From an uncultured candidatus Brocadiaceae bacterium (GTDB lineage: Bacteria; Planctomycetota; Brocadiia; SM23-32): 64,000 nt of DNA. This document shows positions 26,435 to 32,690 of this stretch, piece by piece. The position numbers and the translations under genes are program-made. Position 1 is the first letter of the stretch. Every line of letters starts with the position of its first letter. The notes beneath the pieces were generated by a model. The model was not told the DNA's origin and did not search any database. It saw only the letters and a program-made list of their open reading frames with translations. The DNA lies in the NCBI GenBank assembly GCA_964421565.1, contig CAYQXJ010000006.1, forward strand, positions 154,679 to 218,678, written 5' to 3'.

Positions 26435-26457
26435 GGGGCGCCCCAGGTGGGCGCCCC
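26435..26457. terminator. GC-rich hairpin between the convergent CMD-family gene and the rubredoxin gene; it could act as a bidirectional terminator
   Basis: The hairpin is GGGGCGCCC-caggt-GGGCGCCCC, a perfect 9-bp stem with a 5-nt loop. It is followed by CTTT on the plus strand. Confidence 0.45.
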
Positions 26458-26477: not shown

Positions 26478-26639
26478 TCAGTCCCGGGCCATGAAGAACT
26501 CGGCCGTGGCCCCGCAGATCGGGCACCGCCACTCATTGGGAAGCTCCACGAAGGGCGTGCCCGGGGGCACTCCTTGTTCCGGATCCCCCTGCTGCGGGTC
26601 GTACACGTAGTCGCATAGCAGGCATTCGTGATGCGTCAT
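26478..26639 (-). CDS. rub: Rubredoxin
   Basis: MTHHECLLCDYVYDPQQGDPEQGVPPGTPFVELPNEWRCPICGATAEFF has the two CxxCG knuckles and the conserved aromatic residues of rubredoxin. It is 53 aa long. Confidence 0.85.
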   Translation of the reverse strand: MTHHECLLCDYVYDPQQGDPEQGVPPGTPFVELPNEWRCPICGATAEFFMARD

Positions 26640-26728: not shown

Positions 26729-28378
26729 TCAGGCGAGGGCCTCCTCCAGGTCCTGCTCAACGGTTGAGATGGGTTGGATGTGGAACTTGTCGACGAGCAC
26801 CTTCAGGACGGGATCGGTGATGAAGGCCGGCAGGCTCGGCCCGAGCTTCATATCTTCGATGCCCAGGCTGAACAGGGTCAGCAGGATCGCCACCGCCTTC
26901 TGCTCATACCAGGAGAGGATGAAGGAGAGCGGCAGTTCGTTTACCTCGCAGTCGAAGGCGTCTGCCAGTGCCAGCGCAATCTGTATGGCGGAGTAGGAGT
27001 CATTGCATTGCCCGATGTCGAGCAGGCGCGGTATGCCGCCGATGTCGCCGAACTCGAGCTTGTTGAAACGATACTTGCCGCAGGCGAGGGTCAGGATCAG
27101 GCAGTCGTCAGGAACCGACTCGGCGAACCGGGTGTAGTAGTTGCGCCCGGGCTTCGCTCCGTCGCAGCCGCCGATCAGGAAGAAGTGGCGGATGTCGCCG
27201 TTCTTCACCGCGTCAATCACTGCCCCCGCGACGCCCATGACGGCCTCGTGGCCGAAGCCGACGGTAATCGTCTTCTCTTCGTCGTCTTCGGCAAAGCCTT
27301 CGGCCGCCTGAGCCGCCTGTATGACCTGCGAGAAGTCGGTATCGCTGATGTGGGTGACGCCGGGCCAGCCGGTCGGGCCGCTGGTGAATATGCGCTCCTT
27401 GTAGGTGTCCTTCGGCTTCATCAGGCAGTTGGTGGTCATCAACACGGCGCCGGGGAAGTCCTCGAACTCCGAGCGTTGGTTCTGCCATGCACTGCCATAG
27501 TTGCCGACCAGATGTTCGTGCTTCTTCAGCTCGGGATATCCGTGAGCGGGCAGCATTTCGCCGTGCGTGTAGACGTTGATGCCCGTTCCTTCGGTCTGCT
27601 CCAGCAGCGCCTTCAGGTCCTTCAGGTCGTGGCCGCTGACCACGATGCACTTACCTTTCAGCGGTGTCACGCGCACCTGCGTGGGTTCGGGATCGCCATA
27701 AGTGCCCGTGTTCGCCCTGTCCAGCAGTTCCATCGCCTGCAGGTTGAGCTCCCCGGTCTGGAGCGCGTGGGCCAGAAGGTCGCCCATGTCCGTCGGCTCG
27801 GACGCCACGTAATCGAGCAGTTCATGGAACAGCGCGTAGGTTTCGTCATCCTCCTCGCCAAGGATGGCGGCGTGATGCGCGTAGGCGGCGGCGCCTTTCA
27901 CGCCATAGACGATGGCTTCCTGCAGGCCGGCCACATCCTCGCCGTGGCGATCGATGCGGTTCTCGATGGAGAGCTGTTCGCCCTGGCTTATCATGTCGTT
28001 CAGGTCGTCGGCCGGTTCGAGGGCGGCGGTGCCGTCCAGCTCTTCGGGCGCTCTGTCTGCTTCGCGACAGGCGTCTTCATAGCGCCCCTTCAGCCGTTCG
28101 CGCAGCTCGGTGCCCCTTCTCACGTAGTCCTGCAGGTATTCGGGGTCGAAGTTGGTGTTGGTCAGCGTGGTGAACATCGCGTCGCAGACGAACCGGTCGG
28201 CCTCGTTGTCACGCGCGCCCAGCTCGCCGGCGCGGCGGCCGTACATCGCAACACCTTTGGTCAGGTGGACCAGCAAGTCCTGCATGGCTGCCGTTTCGGG
28301 ATCCTTGCCGCACACACCGTAGCTGGTGCATCCGTTGCCCTGTGCCGTCTGTTCGCACTGGTAGCAGAACATGCTCAT
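26729..28378 (-). CDS. hcp: Hybrid cluster protein (hydroxylamine reductase / prismane protein)
   Basis: The (MS)MFCYQCEQTAQGNGCTSYGVCGK N-terminal cubane-cluster motif is present. The length is 549 aa with Hcp-like conservation throughout. Confidence 0.9.
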   Translation of the reverse strand: MSMFCYQCEQTAQGNGCTSYGVCGKDPETAAMQDLLVHLTKGVAMYGRRAGELGARDNEADRFVCDAMFTTLTNTNFDPEYLQDYVRRGTELRERLKGRYEDACREADRAPEELDGTAALEPADDLNDMISQGEQLSIENRIDRHGEDVAGLQEAIVYGVKGAAAYAHHAAILGEEDDETYALFHELLDYVASEPTDMGDLLAHALQTGELNLQAMELLDRANTGTYGDPEPTQVRVTPLKGKCIVVSGHDLKDLKALLEQTEGTGINVYTHGEMLPAHGYPELKKHEHLVGNYGSAWQNQRSEFEDFPGAVLMTTNCLMKPKDTYKERIFTSGPTGWPGVTHISDTDFSQVIQAAQAAEGFAEDDEEKTITVGFGHEAVMGVAGAVIDAVKNGDIRHFFLIGGCDGAKPGRNYYTRFAESVPDDCLILTLACGKYRFNKLEFGDIGGIPRLLDIGQCNDSYSAIQIALALADAFDCEVNELPLSFILSWYEQKAVAILLTLFSLGIEDMKLGPSLPAFITDPVLKVLVDKFHIQPISTVEQDLEEALA

Positions 28379-28432: not shown

Positions 28433-29623
28433 TCAGATGTCCTTCGTTCTGTCCGCCATCTGGCGTCCCCACTCGCGGCACGCCTGCAGGGCGTCCGCGT
28501 CTGGCTGCCACTTGCACTTGATGCCGTCCGTCGCCAGCGGGATACTGCACTGTTCGAAGTGGTTTTCGATGATCTGAACGGCCTCGCCGCTCCAGCCGTA
28601 GCTGCCGAACGCGGCGCCGATTTTGTTCTGGAAACGCAACCCCCGCAGGTCCTCCAGTATGGGCCGGATGGTCGGCAGCACGCCCTGATTCAGGGTCGGC
28701 GAGCCGATGATCACGGAGTGAGCCTTGAAGACCTCGACCAGGGCGTCATTACGGTCGGTGACGCCCATGTGAAGTATCTTGTGGTCTACGCCCCCGTCGC
28801 TGAGCCCGGCTCCGATGGCATCGGCCATGCGACGCGTGCCCTCCCACATGGTGTCGAACAGGATGACGGCACGCGGGCGGGGTTCCTGTTTCGCCCACTC
28901 CACGTATTTCTCAACGATCTGCATCGGCTCCCGTCGCCATATGATGCCATGACTTGGCGCGATCATCTCGATGTCGAGATCCAGCGGCCCGAGCTCCTCC
29001 ACCTTCCGAAGCACCTGCGGGCTGAACGGCGTCAGGATGTTGACGTAATACTTGAGCGCCTCGTCGAACAACTCCTTCTGGTTCACCTGATCGTTGAAGC
29101 GGAACGCCGTGGCGTAGTGTTGTCCGAAGGCGTCGTTGGGCATCAGTATGTGGTCGGCGGTCAGGTAGGTGAACATGCTGTCCGGCCAGTGCAGCATGGG
29201 CGCCTCGACGAACATCAGGTCATTGCGCCCGACGTTGACCGTGTCGCCGGTGTTGACAGCCTTGAAGTCCCAGTCTTTGTGAAAGTGGCCGGGGATGCTC
29301 CGCTTGCCGCGGCGGGAGACGATGAGCGTGGCGTCCGGGCAATGCCGCAGCAGGGCGGGCAGAGCGCCGGAGTGGTCGATCTCGGAGTGGTTCGCCACCA
29401 CGATGTCGATCTGCGCCGGGTCAATGATCTCGCGGATGTTTTCGAGCATCTCCTCGGCGAACGGTTCCCACACGGTGTCGACCAGCACTGTCTTCTCGTC
29501 GAGGATCAGGTACGCATTGTAGCTGGAGCCGCGGTGCGTGGAGAGTTCGTGTCCGTGGAAGTGCCGCAGGTCCCAGTCCACGACGCCCACCCAGTAGACG
29601 CCGTCCTTTAGTTTTTCTGGCAT
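28433..29623 (-). CDS. Flavodiiron protein (rubredoxin:oxygen / nitric oxide reductase, FprA/ROO-type)
   Basis: N-terminal metallo-beta-lactamase-like diiron domain (VYWVG, NHSEIDHSGALP H-x-E-x-D-H motif) plus C-terminal flavodoxin-like domain; ~396 aa. Confidence 0.9.
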   Translation of the reverse strand: MPEKLKDGVYWVGVVDWDLRHFHGHELSTHRGSSYNAYLILDEKTVLVDTVWEPFAEEMLENIREIIDPAQIDIVVANHSEIDHSGALPALLRHCPDATLIVSRRGKRSIPGHFHKDWDFKAVNTGDTVNVGRNDLMFVEAPMLHWPDSMFTYLTADHILMPNDAFGQHYATAFRFNDQVNQKELFDEALKYYVNILTPFSPQVLRKVEELGPLDLDIEMIAPSHGIIWRREPMQIVEKYVEWAKQEPRPRAVILFDTMWEGTRRMADAIGAGLSDGGVDHKILHMGVTDRNDALVEVFKAHSVIIGSPTLNQGVLPTIRPILEDLRGLRFQNKIGAAFGSYGWSGEAVQIIENHFEQCSIPLATDGIKCKWQPDADALQACREWGRQMADRTKDI

Positions 29624-29646: not shown

Positions 29647-29907
29647 TCACGCAGCCCTGACGGGCGGCTCCAGCACCATCTCCCGATTGCAGCATCGTGG
29701 TTCGAAGGCGCCGCCGGTCACTCGCAGCACGCCGACTTCGGCGCCGCACACCGGGCAGTAGTAGAAGCGCGTTCGGCACCCCAGCGGAGCCATTGGCCGG
29801 TTGCAGCAGCGCGGTTCGAACCCGGCGCCGCGCCCGACCAGCACTGTCACCTCGGCGCCGCAGATGTTGCACCGGTAAACCATTCCCCTCGTCACGCTGT
29901 CTGTCAC
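29647..29907 (-). CDS. Tandem desulforedoxin-like protein with two Fe(Cys)4 modules
   Basis: It contains two copies of the desulforedoxin signature YxCxxCGxxVxV...GxxxxxxCCNxxM. They are YRCNICGAEVTVLVGRGAGFEPRCCNRPM and YYCPVCGAEVGVLRVTGGAFEPRCCNREM. The GTG start at 29907 is preceded by GGAGGAGG. The GTG and the upstream TGA overlap within the tetranucleotide GTGA, which suggests translational coupling. Confidence 0.7.
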   Translation of the reverse strand: MTDSVTRGMVYRCNICGAEVTVLVGRGAGFEPRCCNRPMAPLGCRTRFYYCPVCGAEVGVLRVTGGAFEPRCCNREMVLEPPVRAA

Positions 29908-30128
29908 TCTTCCTCCTCCGGTTCGGCTTCGGCCCCGTGAACGCGTTCCATGGGTTCACCACAGCACACAAGGTCGAGGATGCCCACGCCCCCACGGGTG
30001 ACCATGATCAGGTTGCCGCACCCGCGACACGCGTACGCCGTGCCGACCTTGATGGTGAGTGCGCTCTCCCAGTCGCCCAGGTCCCACTCGGGCGGCGGTG
30101 ACTCGGGGTACTTCTCCTGGCTTTCCAC
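29904..30128 (-). CDS. Desulforedoxin-like protein (single Fe(Cys)4 module)
   Basis: YACRGCGNLIMVTRGGVGILDLVCCGEPM matches the D. gigas desulforedoxin pattern ([27 protein letters not shown]). I chose the GTG start at 30128, which is preceded by a GGAGG Shine-Dalgarno sequence. The longer 30350 ORF is Arg-rich with low complexity and probably not translated. Confidence 0.6.
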   Translation of the reverse strand: MESQEKYPESPPPEWDLGDWESALTIKVGTAYACRGCGNLIMVTRGGVGILDLVCCGEPMERVHGAEAEPEEEE

Positions 30129-30365
30129 AGCTCCACCTCCTGGTTCTGACGCAACGGCGGCGGCTGATGCGTATGCGCAGTGCCTGCTGGGAACGCCGTG
30201 CCGCCGTGCTTCGGGGGGATGTCGTAGCGGCGCCCCTCGCTGCGGGTTCCTGCGGCGCTTCCATCTTTCTACGCTTTCGGCGAACATCGCGCAAGTAGGT
30301 TCGCAGCGCCGGCGTGCGCCCGGGCCGCCTGATGGCAGGGTCCTGGCCATGGCAGTCGGTGTCTC

Positions 30366-30683
30366 CTATGGTGCAGGGGTCTTGACGACGAGGAACCGAA
30401 AAGCCGCTTCGCCATCGTTCATCAGCCTGTGTGGAATGCCGGCCGGGCTGTGCACAAGGTCGTCCCGGCGGACAGACTGCTGCTGGTCGCCTATCTCCAC
30501 GGTGCCCACCCCCTCCAGTACGTAGAAGAACACGTCCAGCGGAGTTTCATGCCGCCGGAGGGCCTCGCGCGGTTCCAGGGTGATGTGCACCACCTGCATA
30601 TGCTCGGTGTCGTGCAGCTTCCGGGCGCTGACGCCGTGTGGGTTCTCGGATTCAGCCGTCTGCGTCGCGTGGACCACCTGCAT
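30366..30683 (-). CDS. Cupin-domain protein
   Basis: The small barrel protein carries H...H-type cupin motifs (LRRHETPLDVFFYVLEGVG...SPAGIPHRL). Confidence 0.6.
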   Translation of the reverse strand: MQVVHATQTAESENPHGVSARKLHDTEHMQVVHITLEPREALRRHETPLDVFFYVLEGVGTVEIGDQQQSVRRDDLVHSPAGIPHRLMNDGEAAFRFLVVKTPAP

Positions 30684-30708: not shown

Positions 30709-31479
30709 TCAAGGGGCCGAAGCGGGCTGGGGCGGATTGAGCGTGCAGCGCTCAAGGACGCTGCCGCGAATGCTGACGGTTACGTCCTGCAGGGGGATGT
30801 CCTTGCCGCTGTGCTCGAGGGCCCTGCGGGCGATCATGGTGAGGCCCGAGCAGCAGGGTACCTCCATGTGGACGACGGACAGCGAGCGGATGTCGTTTTG
30901 AGCCAGCATGGCTGTTAGCTTCTCGGCGTAGTGCGACGCGTCGTCGAGCTTGGGGCAGCCGACCAGGAGCTTTCGCCCGGTCAGGAACTCGCCGTGGAAC
31001 CCTGCGAAGGCGAAGGGCACGCAGTCCGCAGCAAGCAGCAGGTCCGCGCCGTCCAGGAATGGTGCGCGCTCAGGGACCAGATGCATCTGAACGGGCCACT
31101 GGCGCAGGGCGCTCGGGGCGGCGGCCGGCGCCGCTTCGGCGGTTGACTCGTCTTCCTGCCCGGCGTCGAAGCCCATGAGCGCCAGGCCCGGGCAGCCGGC
31201 GTGCGAGGGGGCGGGCTGCGTGGCGTTCGGTGGACTTGCTTGCCCCAAATGTTCCTCCACGGCCACCTCGTCAAACTCCTCGGCCTCGCGTTCGACGATG
31301 CGGATTGCATCCCGTGGACATGTGCCCAGGCACGCGCCGAGCCCGTCGCAATAGCTCTCCTTGACGAGCCGAGCCTTACCGTCGACTATCTGCAGGGCAC
31401 CTTCCGCGCAGTTCGGGATGCACTCTCCGCAGCCGTTGCACTTCTGCTCGTCGATCTCGACGATCTTCCGTAAGGCCAT
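30709..31479 (-). CDS. 4Fe-4S dicluster ferredoxin-domain protein with a Cys-rich C-terminal domain
   Basis: The N-terminus has two CxxCxxCxxxCP-type motifs (CNGCGECIPNCAEGA and CDGLGACLGTCP). The C-terminal region contains GCPKLDD and VPCCSGL. Confidence 0.65.
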   Translation of the reverse strand: MALRKIVEIDEQKCNGCGECIPNCAEGALQIVDGKARLVKESYCDGLGACLGTCPRDAIRIVEREAEEFDEVAVEEHLGQASPPNATQPAPSHAGCPGLALMGFDAGQEDESTAEAAPAAAPSALRQWPVQMHLVPERAPFLDGADLLLAADCVPFAFAGFHGEFLTGRKLLVGCPKLDDASHYAEKLTAMLAQNDIRSLSVVHMEVPCCSGLTMIARRALEHSGKDIPLQDVTVSIRGSVLERCTLNPPQPASAP

Positions 31480-31501: not shown

Positions 31502-32194
31502 CTATGGGTTCAGGCGCTGACGGCCGAACAGCCGCCCCGGTTGTGTCAGCGCATGCTTCTGGAGTTCTGCCAGTCGGTCCTCGCGTGCGTCGGCTTCAAG
31601 ATTCACGATCAGGTCGGCGTCCCAGAGTGGGGCGGCATTCGGCGTGCCCATGCTCTGGCGCTCGTGATGATGCTCCACAATGTCGAGTATCTCGCTCTTG
31701 ACGGCGTCCGGCAGGTTGATGTCGGCAAGCAGCTTCGCGGCGATGCGGCGGCCCATCACGTCGGTCGGCGCGTCGGCTTCATCGTCCGGCACGGAACGTC
31801 CCAGGTCATGGAGGATGGCGGCGGGCACCAGCACGAGCGGTTCGGCTTCCGTGCGGCGCCCGATCTGCTCTGCCAGTTCCAGCACATCGAGGGTATGCTC
31901 CACCTTATCCCTTTCGGCTCCGAAGACCCCCTCCATGCGCTCGGTCAGCTCTTCCCGCAACGGCCCGACGGCGCTGGCCATGCTGCTGAGGCACTCGGCG
32001 GCGTGGGCGCACCAGTTCAGGCATTTCATGGTGTTCTCGGGGTTGAGGAAGCGGTGACCACACTTTCTGCAGCGCCTGACGGGCTCATCGGGCCAGAACT
32101 CCACCGGGTGGCCGCAGCCGGGGCAGGGCGCAACGGTAACGTCGTCGGCCTTCATAAAGCGGGGGTCCTGCCCTGGGCACTTCGGTGCGCTCAT
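31502..32194 (-). CDS. HD-domain phosphohydrolase-like protein with an N-terminal zinc ribbon
   Basis: The N-terminal CPGCGH...CRKCGH ribbon is followed by an HD motif (AAILHDLGR) and a His-rich IVEHHHE segment. Confidence 0.6.
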   Translation of the reverse strand: MSAPKCPGQDPRFMKADDVTVAPCPGCGHPVEFWPDEPVRRCRKCGHRFLNPENTMKCLNWCAHAAECLSSMASAVGPLREELTERMEGVFGAERDKVEHTLDVLELAEQIGRRTEAEPLVLVPAAILHDLGRSVPDDEADAPTDVMGRRIAAKLLADINLPDAVKSEILDIVEHHHERQSMGTPNAAPLWDADLIVNLEADAREDRLAELQKHALTQPGRLFGRQRLNP

Positions 32195-32616
32195 CGCTTC
32201 GTCCCTTCCCCTGCGCAGATGCGTCCGGCGATGTCCTCCAGCGAGACGGCGTCCATCCTCTCAGCCAGCAGGGCCTGCAGGGACGCGAGCTGTTCGCGAA
32301 ACGGGCAGCCGCTCGTGCGCTGGCATATGCCGGGTGTCTCGAAGCACTCGTTCATCACCAGCGGGCCCTGCACGGCCTCCAGCACTTCCCGCAGGGTCAC
32401 ATCCACCGGCCGTTCGGCCAGACGATAGCCCCCGAACGGCCCCTGGCGGCTCTCCACCAAGCCGGTGCGGAGCAGTGTCTGCATTATCTTGCGCAGGAAG
32501 TCCTCCGGCACGGCCTCCTCCTGCGCCAGAGTGCTGACCGGCACAAAGTCCCCCGCGTGGACCAGATGCGTCAGCGCCCGGAGCGCATAGTCGGTCTCTC
32601 GTCTGACGATGGCCAT
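32191..32616 (-). CDS. Rrf2-family transcriptional regulator (NsrR/IscR-like, three-Cys cluster ligand set)
   Basis: The N-terminal wHTH is RETDYALRALTHL...VSTLAQEEAVPEDFLRKIMQTLLRTGLVESRQG. The C-terminal Cys triad is C-x6-C-x5-C (CFETPGICQRTSGC). It is the first gene of the minus-strand operon. Confidence 0.85.
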   Translation of the reverse strand: MAIVRRETDYALRALTHLVHAGDFVPVSTLAQEEAVPEDFLRKIMQTLLRTGLVESRQGPFGGYRLAERPVDVTLREVLEAVQGPLVMNECFETPGICQRTSGCPFREQLASLQALLAERMDAVSLEDIAGRICAGEGTKR

Positions 32617-32690
32617 CAGAGGGTCCTATATGAGAGGTGTTGTATCCTATAAAGTAAGAGTATATCACTCCTATATCTCCTTGTCAAGGC
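32617..32690 (-). promoter_or_regulatory. Sigma70-type promoter of the Rrf2-led operon with three overlapping TATAGGA repeats, a candidate Rrf2 operator
   Basis: On the minus strand, the -35 element TTGACA (plus-strand TGTCAA, 32682-32687) is separated by 17 nt from the -10 element TATACT (plus-strand AGTATA, 32659-32664). Three copies of TCCTATA(T/A) lie at 32625-32632, 32645-32652 and 32670-32677. One is inside the spacer, one just downstream of the -10 and one next to the start codon. The region is unusually AT-rich for this genome. Confidence 0.6.

What the first reader, a model, noticed from the sequence alone, without database searches (positions are those of the whole stretch)
29647..30128. 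Stand-alone and internally duplicated desulforedoxin modules without a superoxide-reductase domain
One 86-aa ORF contains two back-to-back copies of the Fe(Cys)4 desulforedoxin signature Y-x-C-x-x-C-G...C-C-x-x-x-M. The overlapping upstream 74-aa ORF has a third copy. Desulforedoxin is usually the N-terminal domain of desulfoferrodoxin, and free or tandem versions are rare. Their position between a cupin gene and the flavodiiron/Hcp/rubredoxin genes suggests small electron-transfer or metal-handling partners. The two genes overlap in GTGA, consistent with translational coupling.
Basis: partly seen in the sequence, partly recalled or inferred. Interest (0 to 1): 0.65.

Follow-up and report, generated by a model that had tools for sequence, protein, structure and literature searches.

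The report
Conserved desulforedoxin-like two-gene module
Two tiny overlapping genes encode three copies of an iron-binding desulforedoxin-type domain with no enzyme domain attached; the pair recurs unchanged in about 85 uncultured anaerobes, often next to oxygen- and nitric-oxide-detoxifying enzymes, so it is probably an undescribed small electron carrier.

Summary
On the minus strand, a 74-aa gene (29904-30128) carries one Pfam PF06397 desulforedoxin (Dx) domain. An 86-aa gene (29647-29907) carries two fused head to tail. The genes overlap in GTGA, and each has a strong ribosome-binding site. No superoxide-reductase domain occurs in any frame of the 64-kb window.

New points:
- **Conserved pair.** The single-domain gene lies directly upstream of the tandem gene in 83 of 85 related loci, all from uncultured genomes or metagenomes, and the pairing held in a reciprocal search (25/25).
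- **Altered spacing.** All three domains use CxxC-X17-CC, not the canonical X15.
- **Family-specific features.** The 74-aa protein has a conserved W-x4-W N-terminal extension and is acidic. The tandem protein is basic and usually ends in -Ala-Ala.
- **Neighbours.** They differ by clade, but in about half the loci they are O2/NO/iron-stress genes.
- **Local context.** Here the pair lies in a nine-gene operon that starts with an Rrf2 regulator gene.

Best reading: a two-subunit Fe(Cys)4 electron carrier that feeds diiron detoxifying enzymes. Metal content, complex formation and partners are inferred, not shown. I found no paper describing this. It is a new variant of a known kind, of moderate interest.

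The parts
29904..30128 (-). Gene for the 74-aa single-domain Dx-like protein ('Dx74'). It has an acidic N-terminal extension with a conserved EW-x4-WE-x-ALTI-x-VG motif, one CxxC-X17-CC domain and an acidic tail.
   Evidence: ORF. The same gene is called on public contigs. PF06397 E 3.8e-9. Family alignment A2 has invariant W15, W20, C34, C37, C55, C56. AF2 pLDDT is 72.6, and the top Foldseek hits are Dfx and Dx.
29943..30044 (-). Dx domain of Dx74 (residues 29-62): YACRGCG...VCCGEPM.
   Evidence: Pfam stretch 29-62. Alignment to 1DFX/1DXG shows a 2-residue insertion.
29647..29907 (-). Gene for the 86-aa tandem Dx-like protein ('Dx86'). Two CxxC-X17-CCN domains are fused head to tail, the protein is basic, and the C-terminus is -RAA.
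   Evidence: ORF. PF06397 matches in two stretches, E 1e-11. 78 homologues, almost all 76-100 aa long. In alignment A1, six of the eight Cys are invariant and the other two (C13, C16) are at least 90% conserved. AF2 pLDDT 85.3; the top Foldseek hit is 1dxg_A, TM 0.80 on the target, rmsd 1.7 A.
29788..29889 (-). First Dx domain of Dx86 (residues 7-40).
   Evidence: Pfam stretch 7-40; tblastn with a true Dfx hits 29889-29782.
29671..29772 (-). Second Dx domain of Dx86 (residues 46-79).
   Evidence: phmmer alignment to Dfx 1vzg covers residues 46-79; tblastn hit 29775-29671.
29904..29907 (-). GTGA overlap: the TGA stop of Dx74 overlaps the GTG start of Dx86. The GGAGGAGG ribosome-binding site lies at 29912-29919.
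   Evidence: Sequence. In 44 related pairs the distance from the Dx74 stop to the first Cys codon of the tandem gene has a median of 35 nt, range 22-107.
30136..30141 (-). AGGAGG ribosome-binding site 7 nt upstream of the Dx74 GTG start.
   Evidence: Sequence.
28433..29623 (-). Class-A flavodiiron protein (FDP, 396 aa, no fused rubredoxin), 23 nt downstream of Dx86.
   Evidence: Pfam ODP/Lactamase_B plus Flavodoxin_1. NCBIfam PRK11921 scores 563.6 bits, below the equivalog cutoff of 635.
26729..28378 (-). Hybrid cluster protein (Hcp).
   Evidence: PF03063 E 5e-172; NF003658 817 bits.
26478..26639 (-). Rubredoxin, the last gene of the operon.
   Evidence: PF00301, 75.6 bits; ORF.
30366..30683 (-). 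Cupin_2 protein (105 aa), upstream of the pair and separated from it by a 237-nt gap.
   Evidence: PF07883 E 2.5e-15.
30709..31479 (-). Protein with a 4Fe-4S dicluster domain (256 aa). It co-occurs with Hcp, FDP and the pair in 14 loci.
   Evidence: Pfam Fer4 families; PF27217 on the public gene call; co-occurrence counts.
31502..32194 (-). HD-domain protein with an N-terminal zinc ribbon.
   Evidence: PF01966 E 2.4e-12.
32191..32616 (-). Rrf2-family regulator, the first gene of the operon.
   Evidence: PF02082 E 1.4e-30; TIGR00738 91.9 bits.
32624..32687 (-). Promoter-like site TTGACA-17-TATACT (32659-32687) with three AnAnAGGA repeats, a probable operator.
   Evidence: The layout is conserved upstream of Rrf2 in L006, L007, L012 and L013.

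Best explanation
The two genes encode a conserved two-subunit, three-centre desulforedoxin-type module. Dx74 is acidic and carries one Fe(Cys)4 site plus a Trp-rich N-terminal extension. Dx86 is basic and carries two Fe(Cys)4 sites in one chain. I propose that they are made together by translational coupling, associate, and act as a rubredoxin-like one-electron carrier. This carrier would pass electrons from a reductase to soluble diiron or Fe-S detoxifying enzymes. In this genome the candidate acceptors are the adjacent class-A flavodiiron O2/NO reductase and the hybrid cluster protein, expressed from an operon that begins with an Rrf2 regulator gene.

Shown: domain identity, the Dx-like predicted fold, the absence of a SOR domain, conservation of the pair, the operon layout and the neighbour statistics.

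Inferred: iron rather than zinc as the metal, heteromer formation, redox function and the identity of the partners.
For: 1. Domain and fold.
- PF06397 scores above the gathering threshold in all three domains.
- Six of the eight Cys of Dx86 are invariant and the other two are at least 90% conserved across homologues; the four of Dx74 are invariant.
- The AF2 models give 1DXG desulforedoxin and Dfx N-domains as the top structural matches.

2. Obligate pairing.
- Dx74 lies immediately upstream of Dx86 in 58/60 genome loci, 83/85 counting the metagenome loci.
- In the reciprocal search it does so in 25/25 metagenome loci.
- The gap is always short or the genes overlap.
- The charges are consistently opposite: median pI 4.8 against 8.8, and Dx74 is the more negative in 65/66 pairs.

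3. Context.
- 43/85 loci have FDP, Hcp, RIC, Dfx, a rubrerythrin-like protein, ferritin, TrxR or rubredoxin within 4 kb on the same strand.
- FDP directly flanks the pair in 12 genome loci.
- The motif search found no rubredoxin within 10 kb of the pair in any of the 60 genome loci.
- The rubrerythrin-like neighbours have 0-1 Cys, so they lack the fused rubredoxin domain that normally feeds such diiron sites.
- Close relatives of this operon also carry RIC, a marker of nitrosative stress.

4. Literature.
- Class-A FDPs need an external Fe(Cys)4 donor, normally rubredoxin (PMC6033852).
- Among anammox planctomycetes only Scalindua has an fdp-rd operon (PMC10156729).
- A Dx-type centre already acts as a redox centre in C. 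jejuni desulforubrerythrin (PMC7482061).
Against: - Nothing here shows which metal is bound. Four-Cys knuckles can bind zinc, and weak sub-threshold zinc-ribbon Pfam hits exist.
- This operon already has a rubredoxin, so a second FDP donor is not strictly needed here.
- About half of the loci show no stress gene nearby. Some have unrelated neighbours such as MqnA/MqnB, a HerA-like ATPase or a MidA methyltransferase.
- Complex formation is inferred only from gene order, coupling and charge. I could not run a multimer prediction.
- Three domains do not map simply onto the two-fold Dx dimer.
- The X17 spacing could change site geometry or metal preference.
- Both proteins fall below the NCBIfam TIGR00319 cutoff.
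Confidence: 0.55

Rival explanations
1. The proteins are zinc-ribbon-type structural or regulatory small proteins, such as an adaptor or a modulator of a regulator or protease, with no redox role. The Dx-like motif would be used only as a zinc knuckle.
For: Sub-threshold Pfam hits to Zn_ribbon_LysW, Zn_ribbon_8 and similar families. Automatic JGI names call homologues zinc-ribbon proteins. The conserved C-terminal -AA resembles a proteolysis tag, which would suit a regulated adaptor. Many loci lack redox neighbours.
Against: PF06397 is the only family above its threshold. The vicinal CC pair is the Dx hallmark and is invariant in all three domains. The best structural matches are Dx and Dfx, not zinc ribbons. 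Neighbours are enriched for redox metalloenzymes.
Confidence: 0.15
2. The pair is an iron-handling or NO-reactive module rather than an electron shuttle. Its Fe(Cys)4 sites would donate or buffer iron for repair of damaged diiron and Fe-S centres, working with RIC, or would trap NO as dinitrosyl-iron species.
For: The setting resembles a nitrosative-stress operon: Rrf2, Hcp, FDP, and RIC in close relatives. Ferritin and rubrerythrin-like neighbours occur in Thermodesulfobacteriota loci. A -AA terminus could mark a protein that is turned over. A paper on rubredoxin-type sites reacting with NO turned up in the search; I saw only its title and abstract (PMC13623106).
Against: No direct evidence supports this. 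RIC is near the pair in only 6/85 loci. Three rigid Cys4 sites are typical of electron carriers, not of iron donors.
Confidence: 0.15
3. The proteins are metal-free thiol-disulfide redox proteins whose CxxC and CC pairs are reduced by the thioredoxin-reductase-like flavoprotein encoded next to the pair in some genomes.
For: A TrxR-like gene lies directly downstream of the pair in 6 loci.
Against: TrxR linkage is limited to one clade. The Cys pattern and predicted fold match a metal site. TrxR-type flavoproteins could equally be the reductase that charges an iron carrier.
Confidence: 0.05
4. The genes are the remnant of a frameshifted or decayed desulfoferrodoxin (2Fe-SOR) gene.
For: The Dx domain is best known as the N-terminus of Dfx, and TIGR00320 gives a weak partial hit.
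Against: The SOR half of a true Dfx has no match in any frame of the window. FDP starts 23 nt after the tandem gene. The same two intact genes recur in 83/85 loci across phyla.
Confidence: 0.01

Closest known systems
Desulforedoxin of Desulfovibrio gigas (PDB 1DXG; Pfam PF06397)
   Same: It is a small protein consisting only of the CxxC...CC Fe(Cys)4 domain. Each of the three domains here matches PF06397. The Dx86 model superposes on 1dxg_A at 1.7 A over 36 columns with 36% identity.
   Different: From my own knowledge, Dx is a homodimer of one 36-residue chain. Here there is a single-chain tandem plus a separate single-domain subunit with a conserved 28-residue N-terminal extension. The spacing is X17, not the canonical CXXCX15CC (PMC3116461). 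The tandem domains use CCN, not CCG. Both proteins fall below the TIGR00319 cutoff.
Desulfoferrodoxin / 2Fe-superoxide reductase (Dx-SOR; 1DFX, 2JI1, 1VZG)
   Same: The N-terminal Dx domain is homologous. These are the best PDB sequence hits for Dx74, with 1dfx at E 2.3e-5.
   Different: No SOR (centre II) domain is present here in any frame. The loop carries a 2-residue insertion.
Rubredoxin as electron donor to FDP, rubrerythrin and SOR
   Same: The proposed job is the same: a small Fe(Cys)4 one-electron carrier encoded next to FDP (PMC6033852; PMC10156729).
   Different: It is a different fold family (PF00301 against PF06397). A true rubredoxin is also present in this operon, but the motif search found none near the pair in the other genome loci.
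Desulforubrerythrin of Campylobacter jejuni (Dx domain fused to rubrerythrin)
   Same: A Dx-type centre works alongside a diiron peroxide-reducing site (PMC7482061). In about 10 loci the pair sits next to a Cys-free rubrerythrin-like protein.
   Different: There the Dx domain is fused in cis. Here it would act in trans, as a three-domain pair.
Other uncharacterised tandem and poly-Dx proteins seen
   Same: They also carry repeated PF06397-like motifs in one chain. Examples are the 95-100-aa proteins P0170, P0188, P0192 and P0205, and the 655-aa P0196 with 13 motifs.
   Different: The two-domain examples (P0170, P0188, P0192, P0205) use the canonical X15 spacing, long linkers and CCG, and score only weakly against this family (E 1e-4 to 1e-6). 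The 655-aa P0196 has variable spacings of 11-22 residues. I did not examine whether any of them has a partner gene.

Membership tests
Desulforedoxin / Desulfoferrod_N domain (Pfam PF06397) | Profile match above the Pfam gathering score | tested here: met
   44.7 bits in two stretches for Dx86 and 36.5 bits for Dx74, against a cutoff of 23.
Desulforedoxin / Desulfoferrod_N domain (Pfam PF06397) | Four Cys ligands arranged as CxxC plus a vicinal CC | tested here: met
   Present in all three domains. In Dx86, C34, C35, C51, C54, C72 and C73 are invariant and C13 and C16 are at least 90% conserved; all four Cys of Dx74 are invariant.
Desulforedoxin / Desulfoferrod_N domain (Pfam PF06397) | Canonical spacing CXXCX15CC (PMC3116461) | tested here: not met
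   X17 in 59/60 first domains, 50/60 second domains and 44/44 Dx74 proteins. Alignments to 1DFX and 1VZG show a 2-residue insertion.
Desulforedoxin / Desulfoferrod_N domain (Pfam PF06397) | Dx fold | tested here: met
   For the predicted models only: 1dxg_A is the top hit for Dx86 (TM 0.80 on the target, rmsd 1.7 A, prob 1.00). Dfx and Dx are the top hits for Dx74 (prob 0.96-0.98).
Desulforedoxin / Desulfoferrod_N domain (Pfam PF06397) | Binds one Fe per domain in a distorted tetrahedral Cys4 site with characteristic UV-visible and EPR spectra | not testable with these tools
   Requires purified protein.
Desulforedoxin proper (D. gigas type) | Homodimer of a chain of about 36 residues | tested here: not met
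   The chains are 74 and 86 aa. One is a covalent tandem with no linker between the units.
NCBIfam TIGR00319 desulf_FeS4 domain | Score above the curated cutoff of 36.05 bits | tested here: not met
   29.9 bits (Dx86) and 28.5 bits (Dx74).
Desulfoferrodoxin / 2Fe-SOR (TIGR00320) | C-terminal superoxide-reductase (centre II) domain | tested here: not met
   TIGR00320 scores 28-29 bits against a cutoff of 146.9, covering the N-domain only. tblastn with the SOR half finds nothing in the window.
Rubredoxin (PF00301) | Profile match with two CxxCG knuckles about 29 residues apart | tested here: not met
   Neither protein hits PF00301. The operon's real rubredoxin scores 75.6 bits.
Zinc-ribbon families (LysW-like, Zn_ribbon_8, DUF4428) | Profile match above the gathering score | tested here: not met
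   All are below their cutoffs: 20.5 vs 27, 17.2 vs 34.4 and 20 vs 27.8 bits.

The most novel reading that the evidence does not exclude
Dx74 and Dx86 form a defined heteromer carrying three Fe(Cys)4 centres. This would be a new class of soluble electron carrier that replaces rubredoxin as the physiological donor to class-A flavodiiron proteins, Hcp and Cys-free rubrerythrin-like diiron proteins in Planctomycetota/PVC bacteria and Thermodesulfobacteriota. Its level would be set by proteolysis through the conserved ssrA-like -Ala-Ala C-terminus of the tandem subunit. It would also give desulforedoxin-type proteins their first clear physiological role.
Probability: 0.25. Interest if true: 0.65.

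Novelty: new variant of a known kind. Interest (0 to 1): 0.48.

Why it matters
From my own knowledge, desulforedoxin has been a spectroscopic model protein for decades without a settled cellular role. The immediate electron donor of flavodiiron proteins is also unknown in organisms that lack an fdp-linked rubredoxin; most anammox planctomycetes, for example, lack an fdp-rd operon (PMC10156729).

A conserved, co-translated pair with three Dx centres, sitting next to FDP, Hcp and rubrerythrin-like genes, gives a concrete candidate that can be tested. If confirmed, it would add a new small-carrier type to the oxidative and nitrosative stress toolkit of uncultured anaerobes. It would also offer a natural single-chain version of the Dx dimer with altered (X17) site geometry for bioinorganic study. 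If the proteins turn out to bind zinc, the finding reduces to an uncharacterised zinc-knuckle pair.

Tried and rejected
- Hidden or frameshifted SOR domain: rejected.
- Longer 148-aa reading of the upstream ORF: rejected. Public gene calls, the RBS position and the homologue lengths of 71-74 aa all favour 74 aa.
- Literature searches: 'desulforedoxin' with flavodiiron or tandem, 'desulforedoxin-like', and the PF06397/TIGR00319/IPR004462 identifiers. No paper described a tandem Dx or this gene pair.
The nearest loci are Brocadiia/Planctomycetota MAGs.
- Foldseek against afdb50: the library was not available.
- Model coordinates: not exposed to scripts. I therefore could not test whether the two halves of Dx86 pack like the Dx dimer, or measure the Cys geometry.
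- Multimer prediction of Dx74 with Dx86: not possible with the single-chain tool. I saw no natural Dx74-Dx86 fusion among the hits.
- Rubredoxin search: the first two regular expressions were too strict and missed even the window's own gene. Only one search counts.
- ATATAGGA motif: not enriched window-wide (10 matches against 6.2 expected). Only its clustering at the promoter and its conservation in relatives are informative.
Full report
**What is in the sequence.** On the minus strand there are two short genes. The upstream one is 29904-30128 (74 aa, GTG start, here called Dx74). The downstream one is 29647-29907 (86 aa, GTG start, here called Dx86). The TGA stop of Dx74 and the GTG start of Dx86 overlap as GTGA at 29904-29907. 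GGAGGAGG lies 4 nt before the Dx86 start, and AGGAGG lies 7 nt before the Dx74 start. The mechanical ORF list extends the upstream frame to 148 aa. However, gene calls on five identical public contigs use the 74-aa form, and homologues are 71-74 aa long.

Pfam PF06397 (Desulfoferrodoxin N-terminal, i.e. desulforedoxin, domain) matches Dx86 in two stretches (E 1e-11, 44.7 bits, cutoff 23). It matches Dx74 once (E 3.8e-9, 36.5 bits). A genuine desulfoferrodoxin used as a tblastn query hits exactly three places: 30038-29949, 29889-29782 and 29775-29671. Its superoxide-reductase half hits nothing in any frame of the 64-kb window.

**Fold.** AlphaFold2 on the family alignment gives a confident model for Dx86 (pLDDT 85.3, pTM 0.66). 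Its best PDB match is D. gigas desulforedoxin 1dxg_A (TM 0.80 on the target, rmsd 1.7 A over 36 columns, prob 1.00), followed by the N-domains of three desulfoferrodoxin structures. Dx74 is modelled less well (pLDDT 72.6). It has a short helix in the N-terminal extension and a Dx-like core, and its best matches are again Dfx and Dx. Sequence searches of the PDB agree, and they show a two-residue insertion in each domain relative to Dx and Dfx.

**The real unit is a conserved gene pair.** A profile of tandem homologues retrieved 63 loci from species-representative genomes. All are metagenome-assembled genomes. They come from:
- Planctomycetota and Brocadiia;
- Kiritimatiellia;
- Lentisphaerae and Victivallales;
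- Verrucomicrobiota;
- Thermodesulfobacteriota ('Deltaproteobacteria');
- Deferrisomatales;
- three weak Clostridia hits.

In 58 of the 60 loci where the tandem gene was mapped, a Dx74 homologue lies immediately upstream on the same strand. I ran the test in reverse with the Dx74 profile against metagenome contigs. It returned 25 loci, and all 25 have the tandem gene immediately downstream. Overall the count is 83 of 85. The distance from the Dx74 stop to the first Cys codon of the tandem gene has a median of 35 nt (range 22-107). That leaves room only for coupling, not for a separate promoter.

**Family-specific features.**
- Cys spacing. It is CxxC-X17-CC in 59/60 first domains, 50/60 second domains and 44/44 Dx74 proteins. 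The literature gives CXXCX15CC as the conserved Dx motif (PMC3116461). Profile-profile alignment of the two families is gapless across the domain, with probability 96%.
- Dx74 extension. Dx74 has a strongly conserved extension, EW-x4-WE-x-A-(L/W)-TI-x-VG-x-AY, before the first Cys, and a core of VMVT(R/K)GG(V/I)G...CCG.
- Domain relatedness. The two Dx86 domains resemble each other (53-59% identity) far more than either resembles the Dx74 domain (36%). Dx74 is the most conserved of the three, at 65% between genomes.
- Charge. Dx74 is acidic and Dx86 is basic (median pI 4.8 against 8.8). Dx74 is the more negative partner in 65/66 pairs.
- C-terminus. Dx86 proteins end in -Ala-Ala in 35/60 genome loci and 23/25 metagenome loci. 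The baseline is 1.2% for long ORFs in the same loci.
- Rarity. A full HMMER scan of 1.84 billion cluster representatives found 128 hits at E<=0.001 and 59 at E<=1e-10.
- Annotation. NCBIfam has no model that claims the proteins; TIGR00319 scores below its cutoff. Sources that name homologues call them hypothetical proteins, desulfoferrodoxin-like iron-binding proteins, or assorted zinc-ribbon proteins.

**Local context.** The pair lies in what I read as a nine-gene minus-strand operon. The order is:
1. Rrf2 regulator (32191-32616);
2. HD-domain protein;
3. 4Fe-4S protein;
4. cupin;
5. a 237-nt gap;
6. Dx74;
7. Dx86;
8. class-A flavodiiron protein (28433-29623);
9. hybrid cluster protein (26729-28378);
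10. rubredoxin (26478-26639).

A near-consensus promoter, TTGACA-17-TATACT, precedes Rrf2, with three AnAnAGGA repeats around it. The same layout is seen upstream of Rrf2 in four related loci. Close relatives (L007, L073) carry a RIC/YtfE-type di-iron repair protein and a DUF488 protein where the window has the gap. Together, Hcp, FDP, RIC and an Rrf2 regulator look like a nitrosative and oxidative stress regulon. That reading rests on established knowledge of NsrR-type regulons and was not tested here.

**Context elsewhere.** The neighbours change with clade while the pair stays constant. On the same strand within 4 kb, across the 85 loci, the counts are:
- FDP: 19 loci
- Hcp: 14
- the 4Fe-4S protein: 14
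- Rrf2: 9
- RIC: 6
- a thioredoxin-reductase-like flavoprotein: 6
- a rubrerythrin/ferritin-like 180-aa protein: 10
- a 57-aa CxxC...CxxC protein: 10
- ferritin: 7
- Dfx: 1

Unrelated genes also occur nearby, including MqnA and MqnB, a MidA-type methyltransferase, a geranylgeranyl-reductase-like protein and a HerA-like ATPase. In all, 43/85 loci have at least one O2, NO, ROS or iron gene nearby. Among loci with at least 1.5 kb on both sides, the figure is 28/53.

Two details bear on function. First, apart from the window and one metagenome locus (L071), no rubredoxin was found near the pair. For the 60 genome loci this rests on a motif search out to 10 kb. That search finds the window's own rubredoxin, although it also requires CP-x-C in the second knuckle (L071). 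Second, the rubrerythrin-like neighbours have 0-1 Cys, so they lack the fused rubredoxin domain that usually feeds such diiron sites.

**Most likely mechanism.** Class-A FDPs take electrons from an external Fe(Cys)4 protein, normally rubredoxin, which is reduced by an NAD(P)H oxidoreductase (PMC6033852). Among anammox planctomycetes only Scalindua has an fdp-rd operon (PMC10156729). Dx-type centres are established redox centres with potentials near 0 mV, or +240 mV in C. jejuni desulforubrerythrin (PMC7482061).

The simplest reading is that Dx74 and Dx86 are co-translated and associate, and that their opposite charge and the extra N-terminal element serve that association. Together they would form a three-centre rubredoxin-like carrier serving soluble diiron and Fe-S detoxifying enzymes. 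The TrxR-like neighbour in some genomes is a candidate reductase. I put this at about 0.55.

Iron binding, heteromer formation and the partners are inferences. This operon also has a true rubredoxin, which weakens the need for the pair as the FDP donor in this particular genome.

**Rival explanations.**
- A non-redox zinc-knuckle adaptor or regulator (0.15). Only sub-threshold zinc-ribbon hits support it, plus the possible degradation tag.
- An iron-donating or NO-trapping module linked to repair of metal centres (0.15).
- A metal-free thiol-disulfide protein reduced by TrxR (0.05).
- A decayed Dfx gene (refuted).

**Comparison with known families.** At domain level the proteins belong to PF06397. 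They meet the profile threshold, the Cys-ligand pattern and, for the predicted models, the fold. They do not meet the canonical X15 spacing or the TIGR00319 cutoff, and they do not have the single 36-residue-chain architecture of D. gigas desulforedoxin. They are not desulfoferrodoxins, because they have no SOR domain, and they are not rubredoxins. Other tandem and poly-Dx proteins exist. The two-domain ones use X15 spacing, have long linkers and are only distantly related.

I found no paper describing a tandem desulforedoxin or this gene pair. The library lacks most subscription-journal papers, so an earlier description cannot be excluded.

**Verdict.** The added value is a conserved, reciprocal, translationally coupled pair with three X17-type Dx domains, distributed across PVC bacteria and Thermodesulfobacteriota and linked to O2/NO/iron-stress genes in about half of the loci. 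It is a new variant of a known kind, of moderate interest (about 0.48), and the hypothesis can be tested directly by biochemistry.

Noticed in passing
window 32624-32687 (minus strand); also upstream of Rrf2 in L006, L007, L012, L013: A near-consensus promoter, TTGACA-17-TATACT with an upstream TG, precedes the Rrf2 gene. It carries three AnAnAGGA repeats, one between -35 and -10 and two downstream. The same layout is conserved in four related loci, so this is a probable Rrf2 operator.
   Followed up: partly
window 29647-29652 (C-terminus of Dx86); L006-L093: The tandem proteins end in -Ala-Ala (EAA, LAA, RAA, QAA) in 58 of 85 loci, against 1.2% of long ORFs in the same loci. This resembles an ssrA/ClpX-type C-terminal tag. 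The Thermodesulfobacteriota loci that carry the 57-aa Cys protein and rubrerythrin-like neighbours often lack it. It remains unexplained.
   Followed up: partly
window 30129-30365; L007 3222-4401; L073 1836-3001: The 237-nt non-coding gap between the cupin gene and Dx74 corresponds to the position where relatives encode a RIC/YtfE-type protein (ScdA_N plus hemerythrin) and a DUF488 protein. The window seems to have lost these genes or never had them.
   Followed up: partly
proteins P0148, P0157, P0161, P0162, P0173, P0187, P0194, P0196: Large proteins of 200-1200 aa show 4-10 matched stretches against the tandem Dx profile. By motif count, P0196 (655 aa) has 13 CxxC...CC motifs, P0161 has 6 and P0187 has 5, whereas P0148, P0157, P0173 and P0194 have none or one. 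These poly-Dx architectures are apparently uncharacterised.
   Followed up: no
proteins P0170, P0188, P0192, P0205, P0206 and others: A separate family of tandem Dx proteins, about 95-100 aa long, has the canonical X15 spacing, 20-30-residue linkers and conserved GKRY-x-C starts. It is distinct from the X17 family studied here.
   Followed up: no
L040, L053, L057, L059, L062-L064 (about 250-700 nt downstream of the tandem gene): In Thermodesulfobacteriota loci the pair is followed by a conserved 52-62-aa protein with HVC-x-x-CG...IC-x-x-CE (no Pfam family above threshold). After that comes a Cys-free rubrerythrin/ferritin-like protein of about 180 aa. Ferritin and a MidA-type methyltransferase lie upstream.
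   Followed up: partly
L019 991-1365; L028 13749-13916: A canonical desulfoferrodoxin (124 aa, X15) lies about 1.2 kb upstream of the pair in L019. A canonical 55-aa desulforedoxin lies 3.7 kb from the tandem gene in L028, one of the two genome loci that lack an adjacent Dx74.
   Followed up: no
window 26435-26457: A perfect 9-bp GC hairpin (GGGGCGCCC-CAGGT-GGGCGCCCC) lies just past the rubredoxin stop codon. It probably marks the end of the operon. The scan reports it on the plus strand, but the stem is palindromic.
   Followed up: no
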